Under the pieces are notes generated by a model. That model searched no databases and was not told the DNA's origin. It was given only the letters and a program-made list of their open reading frames with translations. A DNA stretch of 35,277 nt from a virus. Taxonomy: Duplodnaviria; Heunggongvirae; Uroviricota; Caudoviricetes. Shown here piece by piece: positions 23,068 through 30,512 of this stretch (position 1 is its first letter; every line of letters starts with the position of its first letter). A program made the translations under genes and the position numbers. The stretch lies in the IMG/VR virus record IMGVR_UViG_651053023_000020; one strand, given 5' to 3'.

Positions 23068-24113
23068 TGAGCAGAAAAAATAAAAAAGTGCGCATGAGTT
23101 CACGCATTGATCTCGCTGATGCGCTCAGGAAAGAATCATCGCTCAGTGCATTCACATTTGATGGTCCTTATCGCCTGACCGGGCATGACCTGCTGGACAA
23201 TATGTACTGTGCTGATAACGGGCGGTGGTATGAAACCCCGGTGGACTGGTACGGTCTGGCAAGAGCCGCCCGGCAAACGTCCTGGCATCAGTCTGCGCTT
23301 TACTTTAAGCGCAATGTATTGCTCGGTTGCTACATCCCGCACCCGCTGCTTTCCCGGCAGGATTTCTCGGCGCTGGCGCTGGACTGGTTTGTGTTCGGTA
23401 ACGCATTCCTTGAGCTTCGAAGCAATATGCTCGGCGAACCGCTTAAATTACGGCACGCCCTGGCGAAATACATGCGACGCGGAAGCGATCTTGAATCATG
23501 GTGGTATGTGCAGGATGGCAAGGATGCGTTTCAGTTTCGCCCTGGCAAAGTGTGCCACCTGATGAATCCGGATATTAACCAGGAAATCTACGGCATGCCG
23601 GAATATCTTGGCGCATTACTCTCGGCCAGCCTTTCTCATTCGGCGGACATGTTCAGAAAACTGTACTACGACAACGGATCCCACGCCGGGTGCATCATCT
23701 ACATCGGTGCAGCGCAGGTAAACCGCGAAAGCATGGACTCCCTGAAAGAAACGTTACAGGGTGCGCGTGGTGGTGGTGCATTTAAAAACGTGCTCATTCA
23801 TGCGCCCAACGGGGGCAAAGAAGGTGTGCAAATTTTGCCGTTCCAGCAGATCACCGCAAAGGATGAGTTCATGAATGTTAAGGCGGCATCCCGTGATGAT
23901 GTACTGGCTGCGCACCGCGTTCCGCCGCAACTGATGGGGGCGATGCCGGGTGAAAAAAGTGCGTTTGGTGATGTGGAGAAGGCCGCGCGGGTTTACGCAA
24001 TTAACGAGCTGATGCCCGTCATGGAGGCCATGAAGCACATCAATGACTGGCTTGGCGAAGAGGTGATCCGCTTTAACCCTTACGCACTGTTAGACACCCA
24101 GCCCACATCCTGA
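23067..24113 (+). CDS. Q: portal protein gpQ
   Basis: 348 aa, start overlaps P stop (TGATG). Confidence 0.9.
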   Translation: MSRKNKKVRMSSRIDLADALRKESSLSAFTFDGPYRLTGHDLLDNMYCADNGRWYETPVDWYGLARAARQTSWHQSALYFKRNVLLGCYIPHPLLSRQDFSALALDWFVFGNAFLELRSNMLGEPLKLRHALAKYMRRGSDLESWWYVQDGKDAFQFRPGKVCHLMNPDINQEIYGMPEYLGALLSASLSHSADMFRKLYYDNGSHAGCIIYIGAAQVNRESMDSLKETLQGARGGGAFKNVLIHAPNGGKEGVQILPFQQITAKDEFMNVKAASRDDVLAAHRVPPQLMGAMPGEKSAFGDVEKAARVYAINELMPVMEAMKHINDWLGEEVIRFNPYALLDTQPTS

Positions 24114-24130
24114 CGCGCTTCGCTTGTCTG

Positions 24131-24153
24131 CTGCTTCGCCGGGGCATAAAAAA
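24131..24153. other. stable hairpin immediately downstream of Q (no clear U-tract)
   Basis: GGGGCATAAA-AAA-TTTATGCCCC inverted repeat. Confidence 0.4.
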
Positions 24154-24409
24154 TTTATGCCCCGACTCTCCAGCTCCTGTATCAATCAGATAATTTCACG
24201 ATGCTTTTCTGCTGATTGCCATCATCGACAGTCAGACTCTTACGCAATCCCACCGCGTTGACTGCATGTTCTCGCCGTCTCAGTGCGATTTTGACGGCCT
24301 TACCTAAATCAAAAGCCCTCACGTCTTTTTCACGCTCAGCGTGAGAAATACAGCCATTCTGTTGTATCTCTGCGACATCGTTCAGGGAATGCTATTTACC
24401 CCCTGAAAC

Positions 24410-24440
24410 GCGGGCTGTTCCCCCGTCACCCGCGCGCAAC
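24410..24440. other. candidate cos region
   Basis: Expected location next to Q; G/C-rich tract gctgttcccccgtcacccgcgcgc loosely resembles the reverse complement of the P2-type cohesive end as I recall it; not an exact match. Confidence 0.3.
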
Positions 24441-24592
24441 AAAAACGCGTTTTTTGTGCACGCACGGATCCTTGACGGATCCAGCCGCCATGCGGGCCGG
24501 AAGGGTAAAAAGTCGTTCAAAAAAATTGTGCAAATTTGTGCACTATTGTGCAGCAGGGCGATGTGTGATTATCGCCCTGGTTTGTCGTGGAT

Positions 24593-25132
24593 CTAATTAT
24601 CTTCTGTCTCCTGCCACGAGACTTTTCCGCCTGCCTTTATGATGGCTTGCTCAACATCCCGTTCGTATCGCAAAGGCTGGAATACGCCGTTAATGAAATA
24701 CTCCTTTGGGTCCGGGATCGATACGGTAAATTTGTCATTCTCTGGTTTTGGTATTGGTGAGACTGGATGCTCGTTTTTGGCAAGTTTTTTTATGACTCCC
24801 TCGTATTTTTCTTTTGTACATTGCATCGCCTCTTCAAAAGAAAGCGCTTTGTTACGCATTAACACGGCGTACTTTAGTGCATCCTGTGCTTTCTGGAATT
24901 TAAGTGCATAGTCCGTGGCGATTTTTTCCAGTTCAGCAGCCCGCCTTCGAAGCCCTTCAATCTCACCATTGCGGGCGATGAGGTTGCAGCACATTCTTTC
25001 ATTCTCATCCAGCAACACCAGCACAACCGATGGTGTCACCTGTTCATGGAAAATATCCGCATCATATCCCCAGTCATCATGTATTGCCTGCTCTGCCGCT
25101 TCACGCAGTGCCTGATAGTCAATCTTGCTCAT
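24593..25132 (-). CDS. Ead/Ea22-like protein (function unknown)
   Basis: N-terminal IDYQALREAAEQA motif typical of Ea22-like proteins; last gene of accessory operon. Confidence 0.5.
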   Translation of the reverse strand: MSKIDYQALREAAEQAIHDDWGYDADIFHEQVTPSVVLVLLDENERMCCNLIARNGEIEGLRRRAAELEKIATDYALKFQKAQDALKYAVLMRNKALSFEEAMQCTKEKYEGVIKKLAKNEHPVSPIPKPENDKFTVSIPDPKEYFINGVFQPLRYERDVEQAIIKAGGKVSWQETEDN

Positions 25133-25653
25133 TGGATGACTCCTTTGTGTTGCGTCAGCTCTTCCTGTGCCTGCATCATGCGATTGACCTGAACGCGTGT
25201 GCGTCGAACGGAAAAAACAAACAGATTCAAAAGGCGGCGCATCTCTTTGTCCTCATGTCGCGCATGACGGATAAAGGTAAGTCGGTAGAACTCGGATTCG
25301 GCAGCGCGTTGAATCAACGACAGATCAAAGTGAAGTGCTGGTCTGGTGCATTTTGCGCATCTGGCGGCAAGCTCTGGCATCAATCTCTTAACGAAGGTGT
25401 TTTGTACTGCTTTGTTGAGTTGTGTCTGCATCCAAATCGCAAATTTCAGCGAACGCATGAGCCGGATCGCGTCGGGCAACGGCAGATAGATCATGCTGGC
25501 GGTTTTGGGTAGCGGATGAATCATTTTCACGGAGACGCGATCGCGCAGTGTTCGAAAAATCGTGTTCCCGACAACAGACTCCACGGAGACAGGGCAGGGG
25601 GCCAGACCAACCCGCAACGCGTTCGTCATGAACAGATATTCATCTTTTTTCAT
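25129..25653 (-). CDS. hypothetical protein (accessory operon)
   Basis: ORF 25129-25719; preferred start ATG 25653 with AAGGA SD (174 aa); stop overlaps Ea22-like start; no family recognised. Confidence 0.5.
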   Translation of the reverse strand: MKKDEYLFMTNALRVGLAPCPVSVESVVGNTIFRTLRDRVSVKMIHPLPKTASMIYLPLPDAIRLMRSLKFAIWMQTQLNKAVQNTFVKRLMPELAARCAKCTRPALHFDLSLIQRAAESEFYRLTFIRHARHEDKEMRRLLNLFVFSVRRTRVQVNRMMQAQEELTQHKGVIQ

Positions 25654-25719
25654 CGTGTTTTCCTTAGTGCGGGGGCGACAGTGCGCCCCGATAAAATTAA
25701 AAGCCGTCAAATTCGTCAT

Positions 25720-26052
25720 TCATCTTCCTGCTCCCTGCGTTCCTTGTTCTTCTCGGATAACGCTGTTGCACACTTCCACACACTCGTCGCAGATGAAAAC
25801 GTCGTCCCCGGCAATTAACTTTTTGATGGCGTGCTGTGGTTTCTTGCAGAAGCTGCAATAAAGCGTTTGCCTGATAGATACGGATGATGTGTAGGATGTC
25901 AGCCTCGCGATGTCGTTCTTGCGGCGCAACATCACACGGCAGCACTCAACCAGTTTCTCCGGGGCGATTTCTTCCTCTGTGGCGAGCGCCTCCAGTCGTT
26001 CGAGTATGTTGAAGGCTTTTTCCTCGGTAATTGCAGAATGCGATGTGGTCAT
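25720..26052 (-). CDS. protein with C-terminal ClpX-type C4 zinc-finger (ZBD) domain
   Basis: [39 protein letters not shown] closely matches the ClpX N-terminal zinc-binding domain; start at ATG 26052 with AAGGAG SD. Confidence 0.65.
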
Positions 26053-26063
26053 CTCTTTCTCCT

Positions 26064-26264
26064 TCAAAGTTCAGTGTGCTGACAGAGGTGTCCTTTGCGA
26101 CAGACCAGGACGCTTCCCTTACTTGAGTCGGTGATTGTCACCGTGCCGTCATCGCACTGGACAACGATGACGGTGTTGCTCTTTTCCGTTGCGCAGTTCG
26201 GCGTGGTTGAATGCGCCAACGGAATGAAAAACAGCGAAAAAAGTAATGTCAGTCTTTTCATCAT
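26064..26264 (-). CDS. small secreted protein with signal peptide and four Cys
   Basis: [19 protein letters not shown] signal-peptide-like N-terminus; 66 aa; tightly linked upstream of the ZBD gene. Confidence 0.45.
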
Positions 26265-26338
26265 GGATGCCTCATGCTTACTGTTCTGAAGGCATGACTT
26301 ACTAAATAAAACTGTCCGTCATGCCTTATCACGTCTCC

Positions 26339-26650
26339 TTATTCGGGGAATAACGCCCTGATGTTTGCGGCCATCTGGCTGGTTGGCTGCGCCTCTGGCG
26401 CAGCCTGTGCTTTGGTTTTTTCCTCCCTGACCTGTGTCACGGGTAACGCCTCATCGTCAGCCCATGCAGCCAGTCGGTAAGCCTCTGCCGGATTCATTTT
26501 CAGAAGTGCCAGCCCGGCCAGAAAAGCCACACGTTGGCCGCTTTTGCGGGCTTCTGGTGTAAGGCTGTCCAGCCAGGCGCATGCTTCGCCTTCGTTCTTG
26601 ACGGCGGCGGGCTTCAGATAGAAACTTATCCGTCTGGTTGGTGTCGTCAT
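26339..26650 (-). CDS. ParR-like centromere-binding protein (StbB-like)
   Basis: RRISFYLKP...WLDSL...AFLAGLAL pattern resembles R1 ParR N-terminal RHH region; ATG 26650 with AAGGAG SD, 5 nt after ParM-like stop. Confidence 0.55.
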   Translation of the reverse strand: MTTPTRRISFYLKPAAVKNEGEACAWLDSLTPEARKSGQRVAFLAGLALLKMNPAEAYRLAAWADDEALPVTQVREEKTKAQAAPEAQPTSQMAANIRALFPE

Positions 26651-26654
26651 TGGT

Positions 26655-27614
26655 TTACTCCTTGTCCATTGCGTACAGCCCATTAACCAGAGCAAACTGT
26701 GGCACCCCGTCCGCGATGAAAGTCGCATTAACTCCGCAGGCTTCGCGGATAGCGGGTGCCACAATCTCCGCCCCGCCACCGACAACCATCACCCGCCCGT
26801 AACCCGAAAAACCCGCCAGCGCGCGGATCACGCGTTGTTTCAGTGTTTCTTCCTTTTCACGAATAACCGCCATCAGGCTGTCGTAATGCGCGTCATTGTG
26901 GATGTGCTGGCGCAGCCAGGCTTCATCGTGGCGATGTTCGATAATGGTATTGGCGATATGGTGACTGGTACGCATACCGTTAGTGGCCATCACCGACAGT
27001 ACGGCATCGGCCATCAGGGAAACGCCTACGTGTGGATCGCAAAACACCTGGCTGATACCTGCCAGTTGTCCCTGGACCTTTGCCACATCCAGCGTGGTTC
27101 CGCCTAAATCCACAATCAGCAGGGATTCAAACGGACTCATGTCAGCCAGTGCCTTAAAGCCAGCCGGAATGGATTCAGGCATAACCCGCACGTTACGGAT
27201 AGTGAATGCTTCGCCGTTCTGGTACTCCACCGGGCGCATAACGTTCGCTTTTTTGCGGTTGATGTTGGCCATGTCCGGCTGTGCGTTTGTGTCGAAATAC
27301 TCGCTCAGTGGCAGGGTGACAACCACATCCACCTCCTGTGGTGTGATGCCTGATTTGACCAGCGCGTGGTGAATGGCGATTACATTCACATCGCTGTACT
27401 GGTATTGCGTGTCGGTCGTCTGGACAAAGCGATCGCTGACCGGATCAAAACCATAGCGCACGCCATCAAGCATGTAGTTCGCAGGCTGCGAGCCACCGAA
27501 CGGCGCAGACCATTCCGACTTGAAGCTGTTCGGGCTGATGGCGTTGCGGCGTTCGCTGTTCTCAGTCCATGCCAGCTTGATGTTGGTGGAGCCGTCGTCG
27601 ATACAAATTTTCAT
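26655..27614 (-). CDS. ParM/StbA-like actin-family segregation ATPase
   Basis: IDDGSTNIKLAW, SPNSFK, YQYSDVNVIAIHHAL, MPESIPAG, LLIVDLGGTTLD, VMVVGGGAE and LVNGLY motifs match plasmid R1 ParM as recalled. Confidence 0.75.
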   Translation of the reverse strand: MKICIDDGSTNIKLAWTENSERRNAISPNSFKSEWSAPFGGSQPANYMLDGVRYGFDPVSDRFVQTTDTQYQYSDVNVIAIHHALVKSGITPQEVDVVVTLPLSEYFDTNAQPDMANINRKKANVMRPVEYQNGEAFTIRNVRVMPESIPAGFKALADMSPFESLLIVDLGGTTLDVAKVQGQLAGISQVFCDPHVGVSLMADAVLSVMATNGMRTSHHIANTIIEHRHDEAWLRQHIHNDAHYDSLMAVIREKEETLKQRVIRALAGFSGYGRVMVVGGGAEIVAPAIREACGVNATFIADGVPQFALVNGLYAMDKE

Positions 27615-27646
27615 GTCGCTTTTCCTTATGTTGATTAATTAATCGA

Positions 27647-27755
27647 TTACGGGATTCTGAAATCCCGTTTTTGCCTGTTTTGTGCGCGCTTCATATATCG
27701 CTGCGCGTTTTTTGCTCATTTACGGGATTCGTGAGTCCCGTTTCTGTCTGTTTTT
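27647..27755. repeat. two about 36-bp direct repeats each containing a hairpin (candidate parC-like centromere/operator)
   Basis: ttacgggattctgaaatcccgtttttgcctgtttt (27647-27682) and ttacgggattcgtgagtcccgtttctgtctgtttt (27719-27755); second copy overlaps the 3' end of gene A. Confidence 0.5.
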
Positions 27756-30512
27756 GTTTCCGCTGGTCAGGCCACCCCGCAGCAGGTCTGCTTTGCGGCG
27801 GGCGCGTTCAGTGGTTTCACTGATTCTCTGTGCGTGCTCTGCGTCGCGGATGGCGCGCAGCATGTCAGAAAGCACGGTAACGGGTGTTTTCATGGTGTTC
27901 TGGTCCTGCTGAAGTGTGGATGCCAGGCGTGCGGCGGCTTCAGGGTCTGATGCCCCCAGCTGTGCCAGATAGCTGGCGGCCGGGTTATGGCGGATCTCCG
28001 TGCTGCTTACGCCGTGATTACGGCTCAGGCGCTGCCAGAGCTGCGTGATTCGGCTGTCCGGGCGGGTATCCGGTTTGCGTACAATTTCAAATCCCTGCGG
28101 TGCAATGATGCTGCCGTCAACGTACAGACTGCCGCCCCGTAACAGGTGCTGCATCTGTTGTTCACCGATATGCAGGCCGAGAGATTCAGCAGACTCCCGC
28201 CATTCTTTAGCGAGTAACTCGTGGTTATCAGGCAAAGGCCGCTGCTGTTTGCGGCTCTGTGTCCAGTTCTGCATTTCATCGCTGCTGTTTTTTGCCTGTT
28301 TGTCACGAAGCGAACGCATCAGCGCCCGGCGTTCGTGCCGTTTCAGTGAGCGCATCCATTCATTTACTTCAACGCCGTCAGGAAGCTGCGGCCACGGTGC
28401 TGGCCGTTCTTCCGGCTGTTCTGTCCCGTTGTTGCCTGTTTCCTGTACACGGGGACAGTTATTGCCACGAGTCCAAGGGGCGGTAGGGCCGCCCTGAAGG
28501 TCAAAACCATTTTCGCGGGCGCTGTCTTCCGCTTCCGGTTTACGTCTTACCAGCTTCCAGTTATCCGGGTGCGTGCACACGCGGGAAGACTCCCCGATGA
28601 GCGGCGACCAGATCCCGTAAATCTGTACACTCTGCTCGCCGTAATCGTTCAGCTCATCTGCGAGGTCGTAGGCGGTGCGAATCAGGTAGTCTTTACGTGG
28701 AACAAGTACGCCGCCCTGTTTTTCAATGTAGGAGGCAAAACACCCGGCATCAGCGGCAGCGAGTACCGCATCCATTGCATCATCCTTCAGCCGTTGCGGG
28801 CCTTCCGGGTTGCGTGCCATCTGGCTGGCAAGGCGGCGGAGTTCACGCCATACCTGACGGGAGGGGATGCCAAAGAACTGGAACTGGCGGACCCGATGAA
28901 GACGCGCCCAGCCAATGGCGCGCTCCACGCTCTCGGCCATTGATTTTCCGGTTTCGTGGTCAACGCGTGGCTTGCCCGTTTTCGGGTCGATGCCATCTAC
29001 GGCGCGGCTGTCCAGGTTTTTTCCGATGTAGGTCGCGATATAGCTGGTTGGTGTGCCTTTTGAGCCGTCGACATACTCCGCCTTAAAGCGCGGAGTAATA
29101 TCATCGCCCAGTTCGTGACGATCTTCCTGAATGGCAATATCGCGGGTGATGGCCACGATGCTGTCGATTTCTTCCGGATGAGCAAAGACCATCATATGCC
29201 AGTGCACGGTGCCGTCATGGTGAGGCTCCACCGTGCGGATGCCATACCAGCGCAGGCCGTCGCGGTTCAGTTTTTTGCGGACCGCCGCAAAAAACGTGTT
29301 AACCAGGTAATCGCTGGAGTCGCGCATGGTGGCCCCGTTCCATTTGGGGTTCGGATGACCGTTCTCCGTTGTTGCGTGGTATTTTGACGGGCAGGTGACA
29401 GTCAGAAACACCGCTTTGTCACCACGGGCTTCGGCCAGAAGTTCCAGCCCCTTCATGGTGGCCATCATTTCTGCCTTACGGTGAACCGGGTTACTTACTC
29501 CCGCGTAATACACTGTCTCGAGATCAATCGTGAACCCGTCTTCATTTTCCAGCATGAAACTTTTCAGGAAATCGCGTGTTTTCTCGCGCTGTGCGCGAAA
29601 CTCGCTTAACGCGTCCTGGCTCAGATAGGGCGATGTTTTTCTGGAAACCAGACAGGCGGCGCGGAGTTGTTCTTCTCTCCACTCGCAACGTAACAGCCAC
29701 AGTTTGCGTTTCCACCATTCTGCACAGGTCAGGCGAAGGATTGCGCCCGGCAGCAGCTCCGTGTCCGGTTCGTTCCTCCGGTCTTTGTCTGTTGTCAGTG
29801 CGTCATAATGTGGAGGCATGGCGTGCAGGTGTAACGCCATGCGGGCCAGCATCTGATACGCCTTCAGCGTTACATCCATGGTCAGTTCGCCATCGGTCGC
29901 GCCAAAGCCATCGCAGAGTTTTTCGAAGGTGCTGCTGAACATCGCCGCCGTCATGGTGGCCAGTGTCTGTATCTGGTGTTTGTTGAGCTGCGGCAGGTAA
30001 AGCAAATCGTCCAGGCGTTCGCGTCCGGCAAGGGAGCGATAACCCTGTGTCAGCCAGCGGTGATCGGTGCGCTCCAGACGTTCGAATATTTTGCGCAGGT
30101 TTCCGCGCGCGTAGCGTTCAGCCTGCCAGCTCTTTTTGCCTTTCTGACGATCGGCTTCCTGTTTTTTGCGCAGGAAGGAGAGGTGGCGAATAAGCGGATC
30201 GCGCAGATAGGACGGCAGCAGGCGCAGCGAGGCCATGGCTTCATCCACCGCGCCGCGTGCCTGTTTTCTGGCATCTCCTGCCAGTGTGATGGTTTTGTCC
30301 TGTTTTTCCTGTGCGTCCAGGCTTTTATTAATCAGGTTGCCCAGCGGCGTTGCGGAGAACGCCGCATCAGCCATTTCCTGGCGGCGCTCGTTCTCTACCC
30401 GGTAGGCATCCAGCCAGGAGGAAAGCGCGGATTCAGGAGCGGGGATCCCCGTTCCTTCACGCCCCACTGCGTGGCGCGGTTGTTGCCAGTCCCTGATGTA
30501 CTCTGCCGTCAT
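27720..30512 (-). CDS. A: replication initiation protein gpA (rolling-circle endonuclease)
   Basis: 930-aa ORF with HUH-like GTVHWHMMVF and YIATYIGKN motifs; noticeably longer than the P2 A length I recall. Confidence 0.85.
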   Translation of the reverse strand: MTAEYIRDWQQPRHAVGREGTGIPAPESALSSWLDAYRVENERRQEMADAAFSATPLGNLINKSLDAQEKQDKTITLAGDARKQARGAVDEAMASLRLLPSYLRDPLIRHLSFLRKKQEADRQKGKKSWQAERYARGNLRKIFERLERTDHRWLTQGYRSLAGRERLDDLLYLPQLNKHQIQTLATMTAAMFSSTFEKLCDGFGATDGELTMDVTLKAYQMLARMALHLHAMPPHYDALTTDKDRRNEPDTELLPGAILRLTCAEWWKRKLWLLRCEWREEQLRAACLVSRKTSPYLSQDALSEFRAQREKTRDFLKSFMLENEDGFTIDLETVYYAGVSNPVHRKAEMMATMKGLELLAEARGDKAVFLTVTCPSKYHATTENGHPNPKWNGATMRDSSDYLVNTFFAAVRKKLNRDGLRWYGIRTVEPHHDGTVHWHMMVFAHPEEIDSIVAITRDIAIQEDRHELGDDITPRFKAEYVDGSKGTPTSYIATYIGKNLDSRAVDGIDPKTGKPRVDHETGKSMAESVERAIGWARLHRVRQFQFFGIPSRQVWRELRRLASQMARNPEGPQRLKDDAMDAVLAAADAGCFASYIEKQGGVLVPRKDYLIRTAYDLADELNDYGEQSVQIYGIWSPLIGESSRVCTHPDNWKLVRRKPEAEDSARENGFDLQGGPTAPWTRGNNCPRVQETGNNGTEQPEERPAPWPQLPDGVEVNEWMRSLKRHERRALMRSLRDKQAKNSSDEMQNWTQSRKQQRPLPDNHELLAKEWRESAESLGLHIGEQQMQHLLRGGSLYVDGSIIAPQGFEIVRKPDTRPDSRITQLWQRLSRNHGVSSTEIRHNPAASYLAQLGASDPEAAARLASTLQQDQNTMKTPVTVLSDMLRAIRDAEHAQRISETTERARRKADLLRGGLTSGNKNRQKRDSRIP

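What the first reader, a model, noticed from the sequence alone, without database searches (positions are those of the whole stretch)
26064..26264. Small secreted Cys-containing protein co-transcribed with the ZBD gene
66-aa ORF with a classical signal peptide ([19 protein letters not shown]) and four cysteines in the about 47-aa mature part. Phage morons encoding small periplasmic proteins often mediate superinfection exclusion or interfere with envelope functions.
Basis: inference. Interest (0 to 1): 0.4.

Follow-up and report, generated by a model that had tools for sequence, protein, structure and literature searches.

The report
Small secreted disulfide protein, phage early gene
This is a real 66-codon gene in a P2-like E. 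coli prophage for a tiny exported, disulfide-locked beta-sheet protein from an uncharacterised family that phages, phage-plasmids and conjugative plasmids share; what it does is untested, and it is built into an early operon rather than being a stand-alone 'moron'.

Summary
Window 26264..26064 (minus strand) is a 66-codon ORF with a GAGG ribosome site. It has a Sec-type signal peptide (KR, hydrophobic core, A-H-S cleavage motif) and four cysteines in a 47-aa mature part.

It belongs to a family of about 76 protein clusters, all unnamed, with no Pfam or NCBIfam model. It matches PHROG families 20764 and 11462, both of unknown function. The four Cys and a QC-D-G-TV motif are essentially invariant, and every full-length member has a signal peptide.

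AlphaFold gives a confident five-strand beta-meander (pLDDT 94-97) with no convincing PDB match.

RefSeq annotates the opposite-strand shadow ORF in this genome, which is probably an error.

Family genes sit tightly packed in early or accessory operons of:
- P2-like and lambdoid prophages
- P1-like phage-plasmids
- lytic jumbo Erwinia phages
- an integrative element
- the IncI2 plasmid virB6/virB5/eex operon

Their neighbours vary, so nothing ties the gene functionally to the ClpX zinc-finger gene 11 nt downstream.

It lacks its own promoter, terminator and odd GC, so it is not a moron.

The most likely role is a periplasmic binder of an envelope component, perhaps excluding incoming DNA. That is inference only.

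The parts
26064..26264 (-). CDS of the 66-aa pre-protein (stop codon included): small secreted four-Cys protein
   Evidence: ORF list. Conserved family. PHROG 20764 E 2.5e-11 and 11462 E 1.2e-6. AF2 pLDDT 94-97 for residues 21-66.
26208..26264 (-). Signal-peptide codons (residues 1-19, [19 protein letters not shown]). Predicted signal peptidase I cut after A-H-S.
   Evidence: Rule-based features: 2 K/R, a hydrophobic core with mean Kyte-Doolittle 2.7 over 10 residues, and small residues at -3/-1. The same layout occurs in nearly all of about 100 family sequences. Low pLDDT, as expected for a signal peptide.
26067..26207 (-). Mature 47-aa domain: five beta strands (residues 24-29, 32-37, 42-46, 51-55, 62-65). 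Cys codons at 26193-26195, 26154-26156, 26100-26102 and 26082-26084.
   Evidence: AF2 secondary structure is identical with a 6-sequence and a 64-sequence alignment. C24, Q36, C37, T41 and C61 are invariant; G40, V42 and C55 are at least 90% conserved.
26270..26273 (-). Shine-Dalgarno-like GAGG, 5 nt upstream of the ATG
   Evidence: Sequence. The upstream 18 nt are AGTAAGCATGAGGCATCC.
26289..26327 (.). Perfect 10-bp inverted repeat (AAGGCATGAC / GTCATGCCTT) with a 19-nt AT-rich loop, in the 74-nt spacer between the parR-like gene and the small ORF. No U-run follows it on the minus strand.
   Evidence: the repeat finder. RNA fold centroid -16.6 kcal/mol, z = -2.5. Kept in relative L002 with a G-U-compatible change. 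Absent from P2-like relatives that lack the small ORF, whose sequence diverges right after the parR stop.
25720..26052 (-). Downstream gene: stand-alone ClpX C4 zinc-finger (ZBD) protein, 110 aa. Its ATG is 11 nt after the small ORF's stop, preceded by AGGAG.
   Evidence: Pfam zf-C4_ClpX E 3.3e-16. PGAP annotation.
26339..26650 (-). Upstream gene: ParR/StbB-like plasmid-stability protein, partner of ParM at 26655-27614
   Evidence: Pfam Plasmid_stab_B E 2e-23 and StbA_N/ParM. PGAP annotation.
24528..24543 (-). First terminator-like hairpin plus T-run on the minus strand downstream of the small ORF. Probable end of the leftward operon, after the Ead/Ea22 gene.
   Evidence: Consensus scan.
26095..26289 (+). 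Antisense 'shadow' ORF (64 aa, TTG start) that RefSeq annotates instead of the small secreted protein. Probably not a gene.
   Evidence: PGAP table. No PHROG, Pfam or NCBIfam hit. An antisense ORF survives in only 7 of 38 distinct family CDSs.

Best explanation
The minus-strand ORF is a real gene. It lies in the distal part of the long leftward early/replication operon of a P2-like (P88/Xuanwuvirus-type) E. coli prophage. The gene order is replication endonuclease A, parM, parR, this gene, the ClpX-ZBD gene, a 174-aa hypothetical, Ead/Ea22, then a terminator.

Proposed pathway:
1. The 66-aa precursor is exported by Sec.
2. Signal peptidase I cuts it after Ala-His-Ser19.
3. The 47-aa product folds in the periplasm into a five-stranded antiparallel beta-meander.
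4. Two disulfides, made by the host Dsb system, staple the fold. Inferred pairing: C24-C37 across the first hairpin, and C55-C61 closing the beta4-beta5 loop.

It belongs to an uncharacterised family that moves between mobile elements of Enterobacterales and sits in early or accessory operons. It would therefore be made when the element is active (induction, infection, transfer), not as an autonomous lysogenic-conversion cassette.

Most likely function (inference): a periplasmic binder that masks or blocks a conserved envelope component to the element's advantage. The leading candidate is exclusion of competing incoming DNA, meaning phage superinfection or conjugative entry. This would work like T4 Sp/Imm or T5 Llp, which are also early-expressed, without being related to them.

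Confidence by step:
- Real gene on the minus strand: about 0.93.
- Exported and cleaved: about 0.85.
- Disulfide-stapled beta-meander: about 0.75.
- Expressed with the early operon rather than on its own: about 0.65.
- Exclusion or entry-blocking as the actual role: about 0.25.
For: Gene and strand:
- ORF with an SD site.
- 76 homologous clusters and 40 IMG/VR loci.
- Invariant C24, Q36, C37, T41 and C61.
- Sense ORF intact in 38 of 38 distinct CDSs, against an antisense ORF of at least 80% coverage in 7 of 38.
- PGAP calls this strand in relatives.

Export:
- A K/R n-region, a hydrophobic core and an (A/V)-x-(A/S) motif 3-9 residues before Cys1 in nearly all of about 100 family sequences.
- Exactly four Cys in the mature part in 96 of them.
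- No lipobox.

Fold:
- AF2 pLDDT 94-97 for residues 21-66, with the same five strands from a 6-sequence and a 64-sequence alignment.
- In the hairpin 24-29/32-37, residues 24 and 37 are cross-strand partners. This is inferred from strand register, not read from coordinates.

Operon context:
- No promoter-like site in 24400-27800, and no minus-strand terminator-like site between this ORF and 24543-24528.
- Ordinary GC.
- Usually -22 to +24 nt from same-strand neighbours in 57 loci.

Where family members are found:
- Between the replication genes and NinB in lambdoid prophages.
- Upstream of xis/int in Klebsiella prophages.
- In a DnaB/ParA/AcaB/TopoIII integrative element of Salmonella.
- In the variable hot/humD/phd-doc region of P1-like phage-plasmids.
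- Next to the RNR small-subunit gene in jumbo Erwinia phages.
- At the head of the operon that carries virB6, virB5 and two EexN entry-exclusion lipoprotein genes in IncI2 plasmids.

Carriage by unrelated mobile elements that all cross or remodel the envelope, including next to an exclusion module, is what points to an envelope-directed, element-serving role.
Against: - No experiment or homology ties the family to any function. Pfam, NCBIfam, PADLOC, a PDB sequence-profile search and PDB/BFVD fold searches gave no informative match.
- The signal peptide was judged by rules, not by SignalP, and no expression data were available.
- The promoter scan is a simple consensus scan. A parMR promoter in the A-parM spacer, or a weak promoter in the 74-nt spacer, could drive expression in the lysogen.
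- The carrier elements use very different receptors and entry routes. A single exclusion target is therefore not obvious, and IncI2 plasmids already have dedicated Eex lipoproteins.
- Disulfide pairing is inferred from strand register only.
Confidence: 0.4

Rival explanations
1. Host-takeover factor rather than exclusion factor. On this view the periplasmic mini-protein inhibits or titrates a host envelope enzyme or sensor while the element replicates or transfers. Candidates include a lytic transglycosylase or lysozyme inhibitor, a periplasmic protease, or an envelope-stress sensor.
For: - It shares the export and fold evidence of the main explanation.
- Early-operon position in temperate phages and presence in strictly lytic jumbo phages fit a function needed during active development.
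- IncI2 transfer regions also encode peptidoglycan-remodelling SLT.
- Most members end in a conserved hydrophobic C-terminus (-EIKL, -TEL, -IEF). This could be a recognition tag, but that is speculation.
Against: - No similarity to any known inhibitor family.
- The jumbo-phage members have different, extended C-termini.
- No partner gene is conserved.
Confidence: 0.25
2. One reading: a lysogenic-conversion moron. It would be expressed from the repressed prophage and protect the lysogen against superinfecting phages.
For: - The gene is present or absent among otherwise similar P2-like prophages. Only 25 of 5426 complete E. coli genomes carry this allele, and only 2 have it between parR and the downstream gene as in the window.
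- In this phage it is preceded by a 74-nt spacer with an inverted repeat.
- It lies downstream of an autoregulated-type parMR module that might be transcribed in lysogens. That step rests on established knowledge of R1 parMRC and is not shown here.
Against: - No promoter-like or terminator-like sites flank it.
- GC is not deviant.
- In most relatives it overlaps or abuts its neighbours inside CI-repressed or N-dependent early operons.
- It occurs in lytic jumbo phages.
- The moron criteria of PMC3594210 are not met.
Confidence: 0.15
3. A secreted toxin, bacteriocin or enterotoxin-like peptide. The comparison is heat-stable enterotoxin STb of porcine E. coli, which also has a 48-aa mature form with two disulfides. 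On this view the peptide acts outside the producing cell.
For: - The size and Cys count of the mature peptide resemble STb (from my own knowledge of STb).
- The source strain is an O141:H4 clinical isolate from a pig.
Against: - No sequence match to any PDB chain with the family profile at E up to 1. STb has a solved structure (from memory), so it should be among the chains searched.
- The predicted fold is all-beta, whereas STb is helical (own knowledge).
- Homologues occur in chicken, human, wastewater and Klebsiella/Citrobacter/Salmonella elements and in Erwinia phages.
- There is no route across the outer membrane.
Confidence: 0.03
4. No protein is made from the minus strand. Either the plus-strand ORF annotated by PGAP (26095..26289) is the gene, or the stretch is non-coding spacer.
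For: - PGAP annotation WP_136746568.1 in the source genome.
- The plus ORF also has a GAGG 6 nt before its TTG start.
- Its pN/pS is as low as that of the sense frame.
Against: - The low pN/pS is expected for the wobble-sharing antisense frame.
- The antisense ORF is broken in 31 of 38 distinct family CDSs.
- It has no family hits.
- It would be a lone gene opposing an operon of roughly 6 kb or more.
- The sense protein has a signal peptide, invariant Cys and a confident fold.
Confidence: 0.04

Closest known systems
PHROG families phrog_20764 and phrog_11462 (phage protein families of unknown function)
   Same: Direct profile matches: E 2.5e-11 over residues 13-64, and E 1.2e-6. Similar lengths (69 and 92 aa profiles). 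The Erwinia jumbo-phage member W6B1F0 (92 aa) is also the best BFVD structural match, at 33% identity.
   Different: Nothing is known about these families, so membership names the protein but does not explain it. This study also extends the family beyond phages, to IncI2 conjugative plasmids and an integrative element.
T4 Sp (spackle) and Imm: early-expressed superinfection-exclusion proteins of a lytic phage
   Same: Works-like analogy only. Sp is a small protein with a cleavable signal peptide, made early in infection, that acts in the periplasm against superinfecting phage (own knowledge). The present family is likewise exported and sits in early operons.
Cor (phi80/N15/HK022), T5 Llp and plasmid TrbK/EexN: lipoprotein exclusion factors
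   Same: They are small, exported, encoded by mobile elements, and block receptors or DNA entry. In IncI2 plasmids the family gene sits four genes upstream of two EexN genes, apparently in the same gene cluster.
   Different: Those are lipoproteins with a lipobox Cys at +1. This family has (A/V)-x-(A/S) signal peptidase I sites and its first Cys lies 3-9 residues into the mature chain. There is no homology.
HK97 gp15-type morons
   Same: A small phage accessory gene with present/absent polymorphism between related phages.
   Different: It has no promoter or terminator of its own and no GC deviation, and it is embedded in an early operon. The definition comes from PMC3594210. gp15 is an inner-membrane protein expressed from the prophage (PMC3594210).
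WD40 repeat blades
   Same: The family profile hits multi-repeat WD40 proteins through the hairpin motif Q-C-D-D-G-T-V-T-I-x-D...G, which resembles S-x-D-x-T-V-x-V-W-D...G. Pfam gives a sub-threshold ANAPC4_WD40 hit. Both are tight antiparallel beta-meanders.
   Different: Only about 25 residues match. The protein is a single 47-aa disulfide-locked unit with a signal peptide and cannot form a propeller. I read this as convergence of hairpin sequence, not homology.

Membership tests
Uncharacterised small secreted 4-Cys family (phrog_20764 / phrog_11462) | Significant profile match to the family HMM | tested here: met
   phrog_20764 E 2.5e-11 and phrog_11462 E 1.2e-6. The family profile recovers 76 clusters at E <= 1e-3.
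Uncharacterised small secreted 4-Cys family (phrog_20764 / phrog_11462) | Four conserved Cys and the Q-C-(D/N)-(D/N)-G-T-V motif in a mature domain of about 47-60 aa | tested here: met
   C24, Q36, C37, T41 and C61 are invariant. G40, V42 and C55 are at least 90% conserved across 64 sequences. 96 of about 100 sequences have exactly 4 Cys after the predicted cut.
Sec/signal peptidase I secreted proteins | Positively charged n-region, hydrophobic h-region of 10 or more residues, small uncharged residues at -3 and -1 | tested here: met
   K3, R4; [12 protein letters not shown]; A17-H18-S19. The same tripartite layout is conserved across the family.
Sec/signal peptidase I secreted proteins | Positive call by a trained predictor (SignalP/DeepTMHMM) or experimental export | not testable with these tools
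   No such predictor or assay was available. The AF2 low-confidence N-terminus (pLDDT 51-60) is compatible but is not proof.
Bacterial lipoproteins (Cor/Llp/TrbK/EexN-type exclusion factors) | Lipobox L-(A/S)-(G/A)-C with Cys at +1 | tested here: not met
   The sequence before the first Cys is ...[10 protein letters not shown]. Across the family, Cys1 lies 3-9 residues after an AXA-type site.
Phage moron (independent transcription unit) | Own promoter upstream | tested here: not met
   0 sigma70-like sites in 24400-27800 on either strand, against 2.7 expected from shuffles. The consensus scan is weak evidence.
Phage moron (independent transcription unit) | Own terminator downstream | tested here: not met
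   The next gene starts 11 nt after the stop. The first minus-strand terminator-like site downstream is at 24543-24528, three genes further on.
Phage moron (independent transcription unit) | Base composition that differs from the surrounding genes | tested here: not met
   GC is 0.498, against a window mean of 0.528 (sd 0.059 for 201-nt windows): 24th percentile.
Phage moron (independent transcription unit) | Present in some and absent from other closely related phages | tested here: met
   1329 E. coli genomes match the flanking parR/ZBD region. Only 25 carry this ORF type, and only 2 have it between parR and the downstream gene as here. In relatives without the ORF, sequence diverges right after the parR stop.
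Functional unit with the ClpX-ZBD gene | Conserved adjacency of the two genes across relatives | tested here: not met
   The downstream gene is the ZBD gene only in the window-type prophages (4 loci). Elsewhere it is SSB-like, a 104-aa hypothetical, Ead/Ea22-type mosaics, the RNR small subunit, or a 100-aa IncI2 protein.
Known anti-phage defence systems (PADLOC) | Match to a defence-system protein model | tested here: not met
   No PADLOC hit for this protein or its four neighbours at E <= 0.01.
WD40 repeat proteins | Several tandem repeats of about 40 residues forming a propeller | tested here: not met
   There is a single matched stretch of about 25 residues. The Pfam ANAPC4_WD40 hit scores 12.9 bits against a cut-off of 22.9. 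The large WD40 hits match through 4-9 repeats of their own.

The most novel reading that the evidence does not exclude
The family is a previously unrecognised periplasmic effector shared across mobile elements. It would be a roughly 47-aa disulfide-stapled beta-meander, exchanged among temperate phages, lytic jumbo phages, P1-like phage-plasmids, integrative elements and IncI2 conjugative plasmids. It would dock onto one conserved enterobacterial envelope machine and so block DNA entry by competitors, both phage injection and conjugation. That would make it a generic cross-class exclusion factor with a new mini-fold.
Probability: 0.15. Interest if true: 0.65.

Novelty: new variant of a known kind. 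Interest (0 to 1): 0.4.

Why it matters
Small exported proteins of phages and plasmids are a largely unannotated class. The few that have been studied (T4 Sp/Imm, T5 Llp, Cor, Sim, Eex proteins) control who can enter an already occupied cell.

This family has four features that make it worth testing:
- It is compact, at 47 aa.
- It has a confidently predicted fold with no solved relative.
- It is carried by at least five different kinds of mobile element in Enterobacterales.
- Those carriers include the IncI2 plasmids that spread mcr-1.

If it blocks DNA entry or manipulates a conserved envelope component, it would be both a clue to a shared vulnerability of the envelope and a handy minimal binder scaffold.

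There is also a practical point. RefSeq annotates the wrong strand in the source genome, which illustrates how such genes get lost.

If it turns out to be just another accessory early gene with a narrow role, the result is ordinary.

Tried and rejected
- **Pfam, NCBIfam and PADLOC scans.** Only sub-threshold noise (CRIM1_C, ANAPC4_WD40), so no family name.
- **PDB sequence-profile search.** Nothing at E <= 1.
- **Large proteins in the representative search.** They are WD40 repeat proteins matching one hairpin motif, rejected as convergent.
- **dN/dS to decide the coding strand.** Rejected as uninformative, because the antisense ORF shares wobble positions and scores equally low. I used ORF integrity across divergent homologues instead.
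- **Looking for a conserved partner gene.** Upstream neighbours fall into 23 clusters. The one large downstream cluster (37 loci) is held together by the common Ead/Ea22-type N-terminal module 'ELARIALASLEAEP' on otherwise different proteins. That is a mosaic-junction effect, not a specific partner.
- **Literature.** No paper contains the motif QCDDGTV or the WP accessions. The IncI2 T4SS paper does not mention the gene.
- **Species-representative genomes.** A degenerate DNA pattern for QCDDGTVT found 11 sites, about the number I would expect by chance from my own rough estimate. Only one (Pantoea sp. BAV 3049) is a true member, so the family is strictly accessory.
- **The inverted repeat at 26289-26327 as a terminator.** No U-run follows it on the minus strand, so it is not a canonical intrinsic terminator.
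Full report
**1. What is at the coordinates**

The window is almost a whole P2-like prophage. It is 99.9-100% identical, over the stretches compared, to the chromosome of E. coli O141:H4 strain P13-6, a pig clinical isolate. Parts of it resemble P88/Xuanwuvirus-type phages.

It has an ATG start and 66 codons, and reads [19 protein letters not shown]|[47 protein letters not shown].
- GAGG lies 5 nt upstream of the ATG.
- The four Cys are at residues 24, 37, 55 and 61.
- The stop codon is followed by AGGAGAAAGAG and then the ATG of a 110-aa stand-alone ClpX C4 zinc-finger protein (25720..26052; Pfam E 3e-16).

All genes from the replication endonuclease A (27720..30512) down to the Ead/Ea22-like gene (24593..25132) are on the minus strand. 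In order they are A, ParM, a ParR/StbB-like protein, this ORF, the ZBD protein, a 174-aa hypothetical and Ead/Ea22.

**2. Is it a gene, and on which strand?**

RefSeq/PGAP does not annotate this ORF in the source genome. It annotates the antisense ORF 26095..26289 (+), a 64-aa ORF with a TTG start. In relatives, PGAP annotates the minus-strand ORF: WP_239606634.1 in strain SWHEFF_58 and WP_000086827.1 in several chicken and human isolates.

Pairwise pN/pS in the sense frame is 0.35-0.47, with binomial P of 0.0005-0.02 against neutrality. But the antisense ORF shares third-codon positions with the sense frame, and its pN/pS is just as low at 0.32-0.33. Substitution ratios among close relatives therefore cannot pick the strand, and I do not use them for that.

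Four other observations do pick the strand:
- Across 38 distinct family coding sequences from 57 loci, the sense ORF is intact in all. This follows partly from how the loci were found. An antisense ORF covering at least 80% of the CDS exists in only 7, and median coverage is 51%.
- The sense protein matches PHROG families (phrog_20764, E 2.5e-11; phrog_11462, E 1.2e-6). The antisense protein matches nothing.
- The sense protein has a coherent architecture that is conserved down to 26% identity (section 3).
- The plus-strand ORF would be a lone gene opposing a long operon.

I conclude that the minus-strand ORF is the gene and that the RefSeq call in this genome is a shadow ORF.

**3. The protein and its family**

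A first search found only 6 near-identical clusters, all from E. coli. An exhaustive profile search of 1.84 billion representatives returned two kinds of hit.

The first kind is a set of 57-117-aa proteins with the same layout as the query. The second is large WD40-repeat proteins. These match only through the hairpin motif [12 protein letters not shown], which resembles SxDxTVxVWD..G. I regard that as sequence convergence between tight beta-hairpins, not homology.

A second profile search gave 76 clusters. They come from E. coli, E. albertii, E. marmotae, Citrobacter, Klebsiella, Salmonella and jumbo Erwinia phages. All are called 'hypothetical', apart from one UniRef entry named 'Secreted protein', and none carries a Pfam domain.

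In a 64-sequence alignment, C24, Q36, C37, T41 and C61 are invariant. G40, V42 and C55 are at least 90% conserved.

I applied rule-based signal-peptide analysis to about 100 family sequences:
- The n-region usually has 1-2 K/R.
- The 10-residue hydrophobic maximum has a mean Kyte-Doolittle value of about 2.2-3.8 in nearly all full-length members.
- An (A/V)-x-(A/S) motif lies 3-9 residues before the first Cys. AMA occurs 37 times, VTA 10, AIA 7 and AHS 5.
- 96 sequences have exactly four Cys after the predicted cut.
- The median mature length is 50 aa.
- No member has a lipobox.

SignalP was not available, so export is a strong inference rather than a prediction from a trained model.

**4. Structure**

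AlphaFold2 gives the same model from a 6-sequence and a 64-sequence alignment:
- pLDDT is 91-97 for residues 21-66.
- There are five beta-strands, at residues 24-29, 32-37, 42-46, 51-55 and 62-65.
- The signal peptide has low confidence, as expected.

In the first hairpin the strand register makes C24 and C37 cross-strand neighbours. C55 and C61 bracket the beta4-beta5 loop, whose length varies from 5 to about 10 residues across the family. I therefore infer 1-2 and 3-4 disulfides. I could not read model coordinates, so this was not checked directly.

**5. Genomic context in relatives**

The allele in the window is rare. 1329 complete E. coli genomes match the flanking parR/ZBD region, but only 25 of 5426 carry this ORF type. 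Only 2 have it between parR and the downstream gene as the window does. In P2-like relatives without the ORF, sequence diverges immediately after the parR stop codon.

Family members occur in these places:
- P2-like prophages, downstream of gene A, with a different upstream gene (a 143-aa hypothetical) and different downstream genes (SSB-like, or a 104-aa hypothetical).
- Citrobacter lambdoid prophages, between the replication genes and NinB/Q.
- Klebsiella prophages, either just upstream of xis/int or before the terminase genes.
- A Salmonella integrative element carrying ParA, DnaB, AcaB and topoisomerase III genes.
- P1-like phage-plasmids of about 90 kb, near hot, humD and phd/doc.
- Jumbo Erwinia phages, next to the RNR small-subunit gene.
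- IncI2 conjugative plasmids. 123 PLSDB plasmid records match at 90% identity or more. There the gene heads the cluster that continues with two small ORFs, virB6, virB5 and two EexN entry-exclusion lipoprotein genes.

The phage-plasmid and IncI2 alleles are 78% identical at the nucleotide level, and 108 of 5426 E. coli genomes carry one of them on a plasmid. IMG/VR holds 40 loci. Among species-representative genomes, a degenerate motif scan found one true member, in Pantoea. So the family is strictly accessory.

In 57 loci the gene is almost always on the same strand as both neighbours and usually -22 to +24 nt from them. The window-type arrangement, with a 74-nt upstream spacer, is one of the exceptions. 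Upstream neighbours fall into 23 unrelated clusters. The single large downstream cluster of 37 loci is held together only by the Ead/Ea22-type N-terminal module '...ELARIALASLEAEP', which is fused to different C-terminal domains. No specific partner gene is conserved, and there is no conserved link to the ZBD gene.

**6. Is it a moron?**

Morons are independent transcription units with their own promoter and terminator and a deviant GC content (PMC3594210). This gene fails each test:
- The consensus scan finds no promoter-like site on either strand in 24400-27800.
- On the minus strand there is no terminator-like site between this ORF and 24543-24528, just after the Ead/Ea22 gene.
- GC is 0.498, against 0.528 +/- 0.059 for the window.

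The 74-nt spacer upstream holds a perfect 10-bp inverted repeat with a 19-nt loop, at 26289-26327. The RNA fold has z = -2.5. No U-run follows it, so it is not a canonical terminator, and its role is unknown.

The gene is therefore best read as part of the leftward early operon. In the lambdoid and Klebsiella relatives it lies in operons that are repressed in lysogens, and in the jumbo phages it can only be a lytic-cycle gene.

The caveats are these. The scans are crude. A parMR promoter in the A-parM spacer could give some expression in lysogens. That spacer holds two ACGGGATTC..GAATCCCGT palindromes 73 bp apart.

**7. Most likely mechanism**

Shown or strongly supported:
- It is a real gene.
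- It has a Sec-type signal peptide with a signal peptidase I site.
- Four Cys are conserved.
- The mature domain is confidently predicted as a beta-meander.
- It is packed into early or accessory operons.
- It is carried by several classes of mobile element.

Inferred:
- The mature 47-aa protein is periplasmic and stapled by two DsbA-made disulfides.
- It acts by binding an envelope component.

The carriers are unrelated elements that all cross or remodel the envelope, and in IncI2 plasmids the gene sits beside the virB6/virB5/eex specificity-and-exclusion module. Early expression also parallels T4 Sp/Imm and T5 Llp (own knowledge). My leading guess is therefore exclusion of competing incoming DNA while the element is active, at a probability of about 0.25.

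The close rival is inhibition of a host periplasmic enzyme or stress sensor (about 0.25). A secreted STb-like toxin and 'not a gene' are each unlikely (under 0.05).

**8. Comparison with known families, and verdict**

The protein is a member of the uncharacterised PHROG families 20764 and 11462. It is not a lipoprotein exclusion factor, since it has no lipobox. It is not a moron by the standard criteria, not a WD40 protein, not in PADLOC, and not related by sequence or fold to any solved structure.

It may work like Sp, Imm or Llp, but it is not a member of those families. No paper in the held library mentions the motif or the accessions.

Verdict:
'Secreted Cys protein next to the ZBD gene' stands. 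'Moron' does not. 'Exclusion' is untested.

Interest is moderate. This is an ordinary-looking accessory gene, but it belongs to an unannotated family shared across mobile elements, it has a new mini-fold, and it is mis-annotated in RefSeq.

Noticed in passing
window 26095-26289 (+): RefSeq/PGAP annotates this antisense 64-aa TTG ORF (WP_136746568.1) in the source genome instead of the conserved minus-strand gene. In relatives PGAP calls the minus strand. This is probably a shadow-ORF mis-annotation.
   Followed up: yes
window 26289-26327: A perfect 10-bp inverted repeat (AAGGCATGAC/GTCATGCCTT) with a 19-nt AT-rich loop lies in the 74-nt spacer between the parR-like gene and the small ORF. It is conserved in strain SWHEFF_58 with a G-U-compatible change, and absent from relatives that lack the ORF. 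It is not a canonical terminator, and its function is unknown.
   Followed up: partly
window 26339-27741: An integrated P2-like prophage carries a plasmid-type ParM/ParR (StbA/StbB) partition pair. Upstream of parM, two copies of the palindrome ACGGGATTC-N-GAATCCCGT (27649-27668 and 27722-27741, 73 bp apart) could be a parC-like centromere or operator.
   Followed up: no
window 25720-26052 (-): A stand-alone 110-aa protein consisting of an N-terminal helical part plus a ClpX C4 zinc-finger domain (phrog_6797, E 4e-49). It is widespread: the flanking parR/ZBD region matches in 1329 of 5426 E. coli genomes, and the gene also occurs in P1-like phage D6. It may interfere with ClpX adaptor or substrate recognition.
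   Followed up: no
window 24113-24593, and loci L018 694-1445, L002 1709-2236, L003 2090-2800: The convergent gap between the portal gene and the end of the early operon is empty in this prophage. Terminator-like hairpins sit on both strands at 24528-24579. Relatives carry cargo at this position: Phd/Doc toxin-antitoxin in BCE049, and 175-aa and 236-aa hypotheticals in others. This looks like the P2-type cargo hotspot.
   Followed up: no
loci L019 5004-5213 and L020 5037-5252: The family allele of P1-like phage-plasmids and that of IncI2 conjugative plasmids are 78% identical at the DNA level. This implies fairly recent exchange between a phage-plasmid and a conjugative plasmid backbone.
   Followed up: partly
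downstream neighbours in 37 of 57 family loci (for example L005 8207-8770, L011 8231-9289, L057): The genes right after the family gene share an N-terminal module ending in '...ELARIALASLEAEP'. It is fused to unrelated C-terminal domains (DUF551, DUF3850, dATP/dGTP pyrophosphohydrolase, Ead/Ea22). This is a recurrent mosaic junction in early-region gene arrays.
   Followed up: partly
proteins P0007, P0009-P0011 and others: The profile of this 47-aa domain scores E 1e-11 to 1e-13 against multi-repeat WD40 proteins, because the hairpin motif [12 protein letters not shown] mimics the WD40 consensus. Such matches can mislead profile searches with small beta-hairpin proteins.
   Followed up: yes
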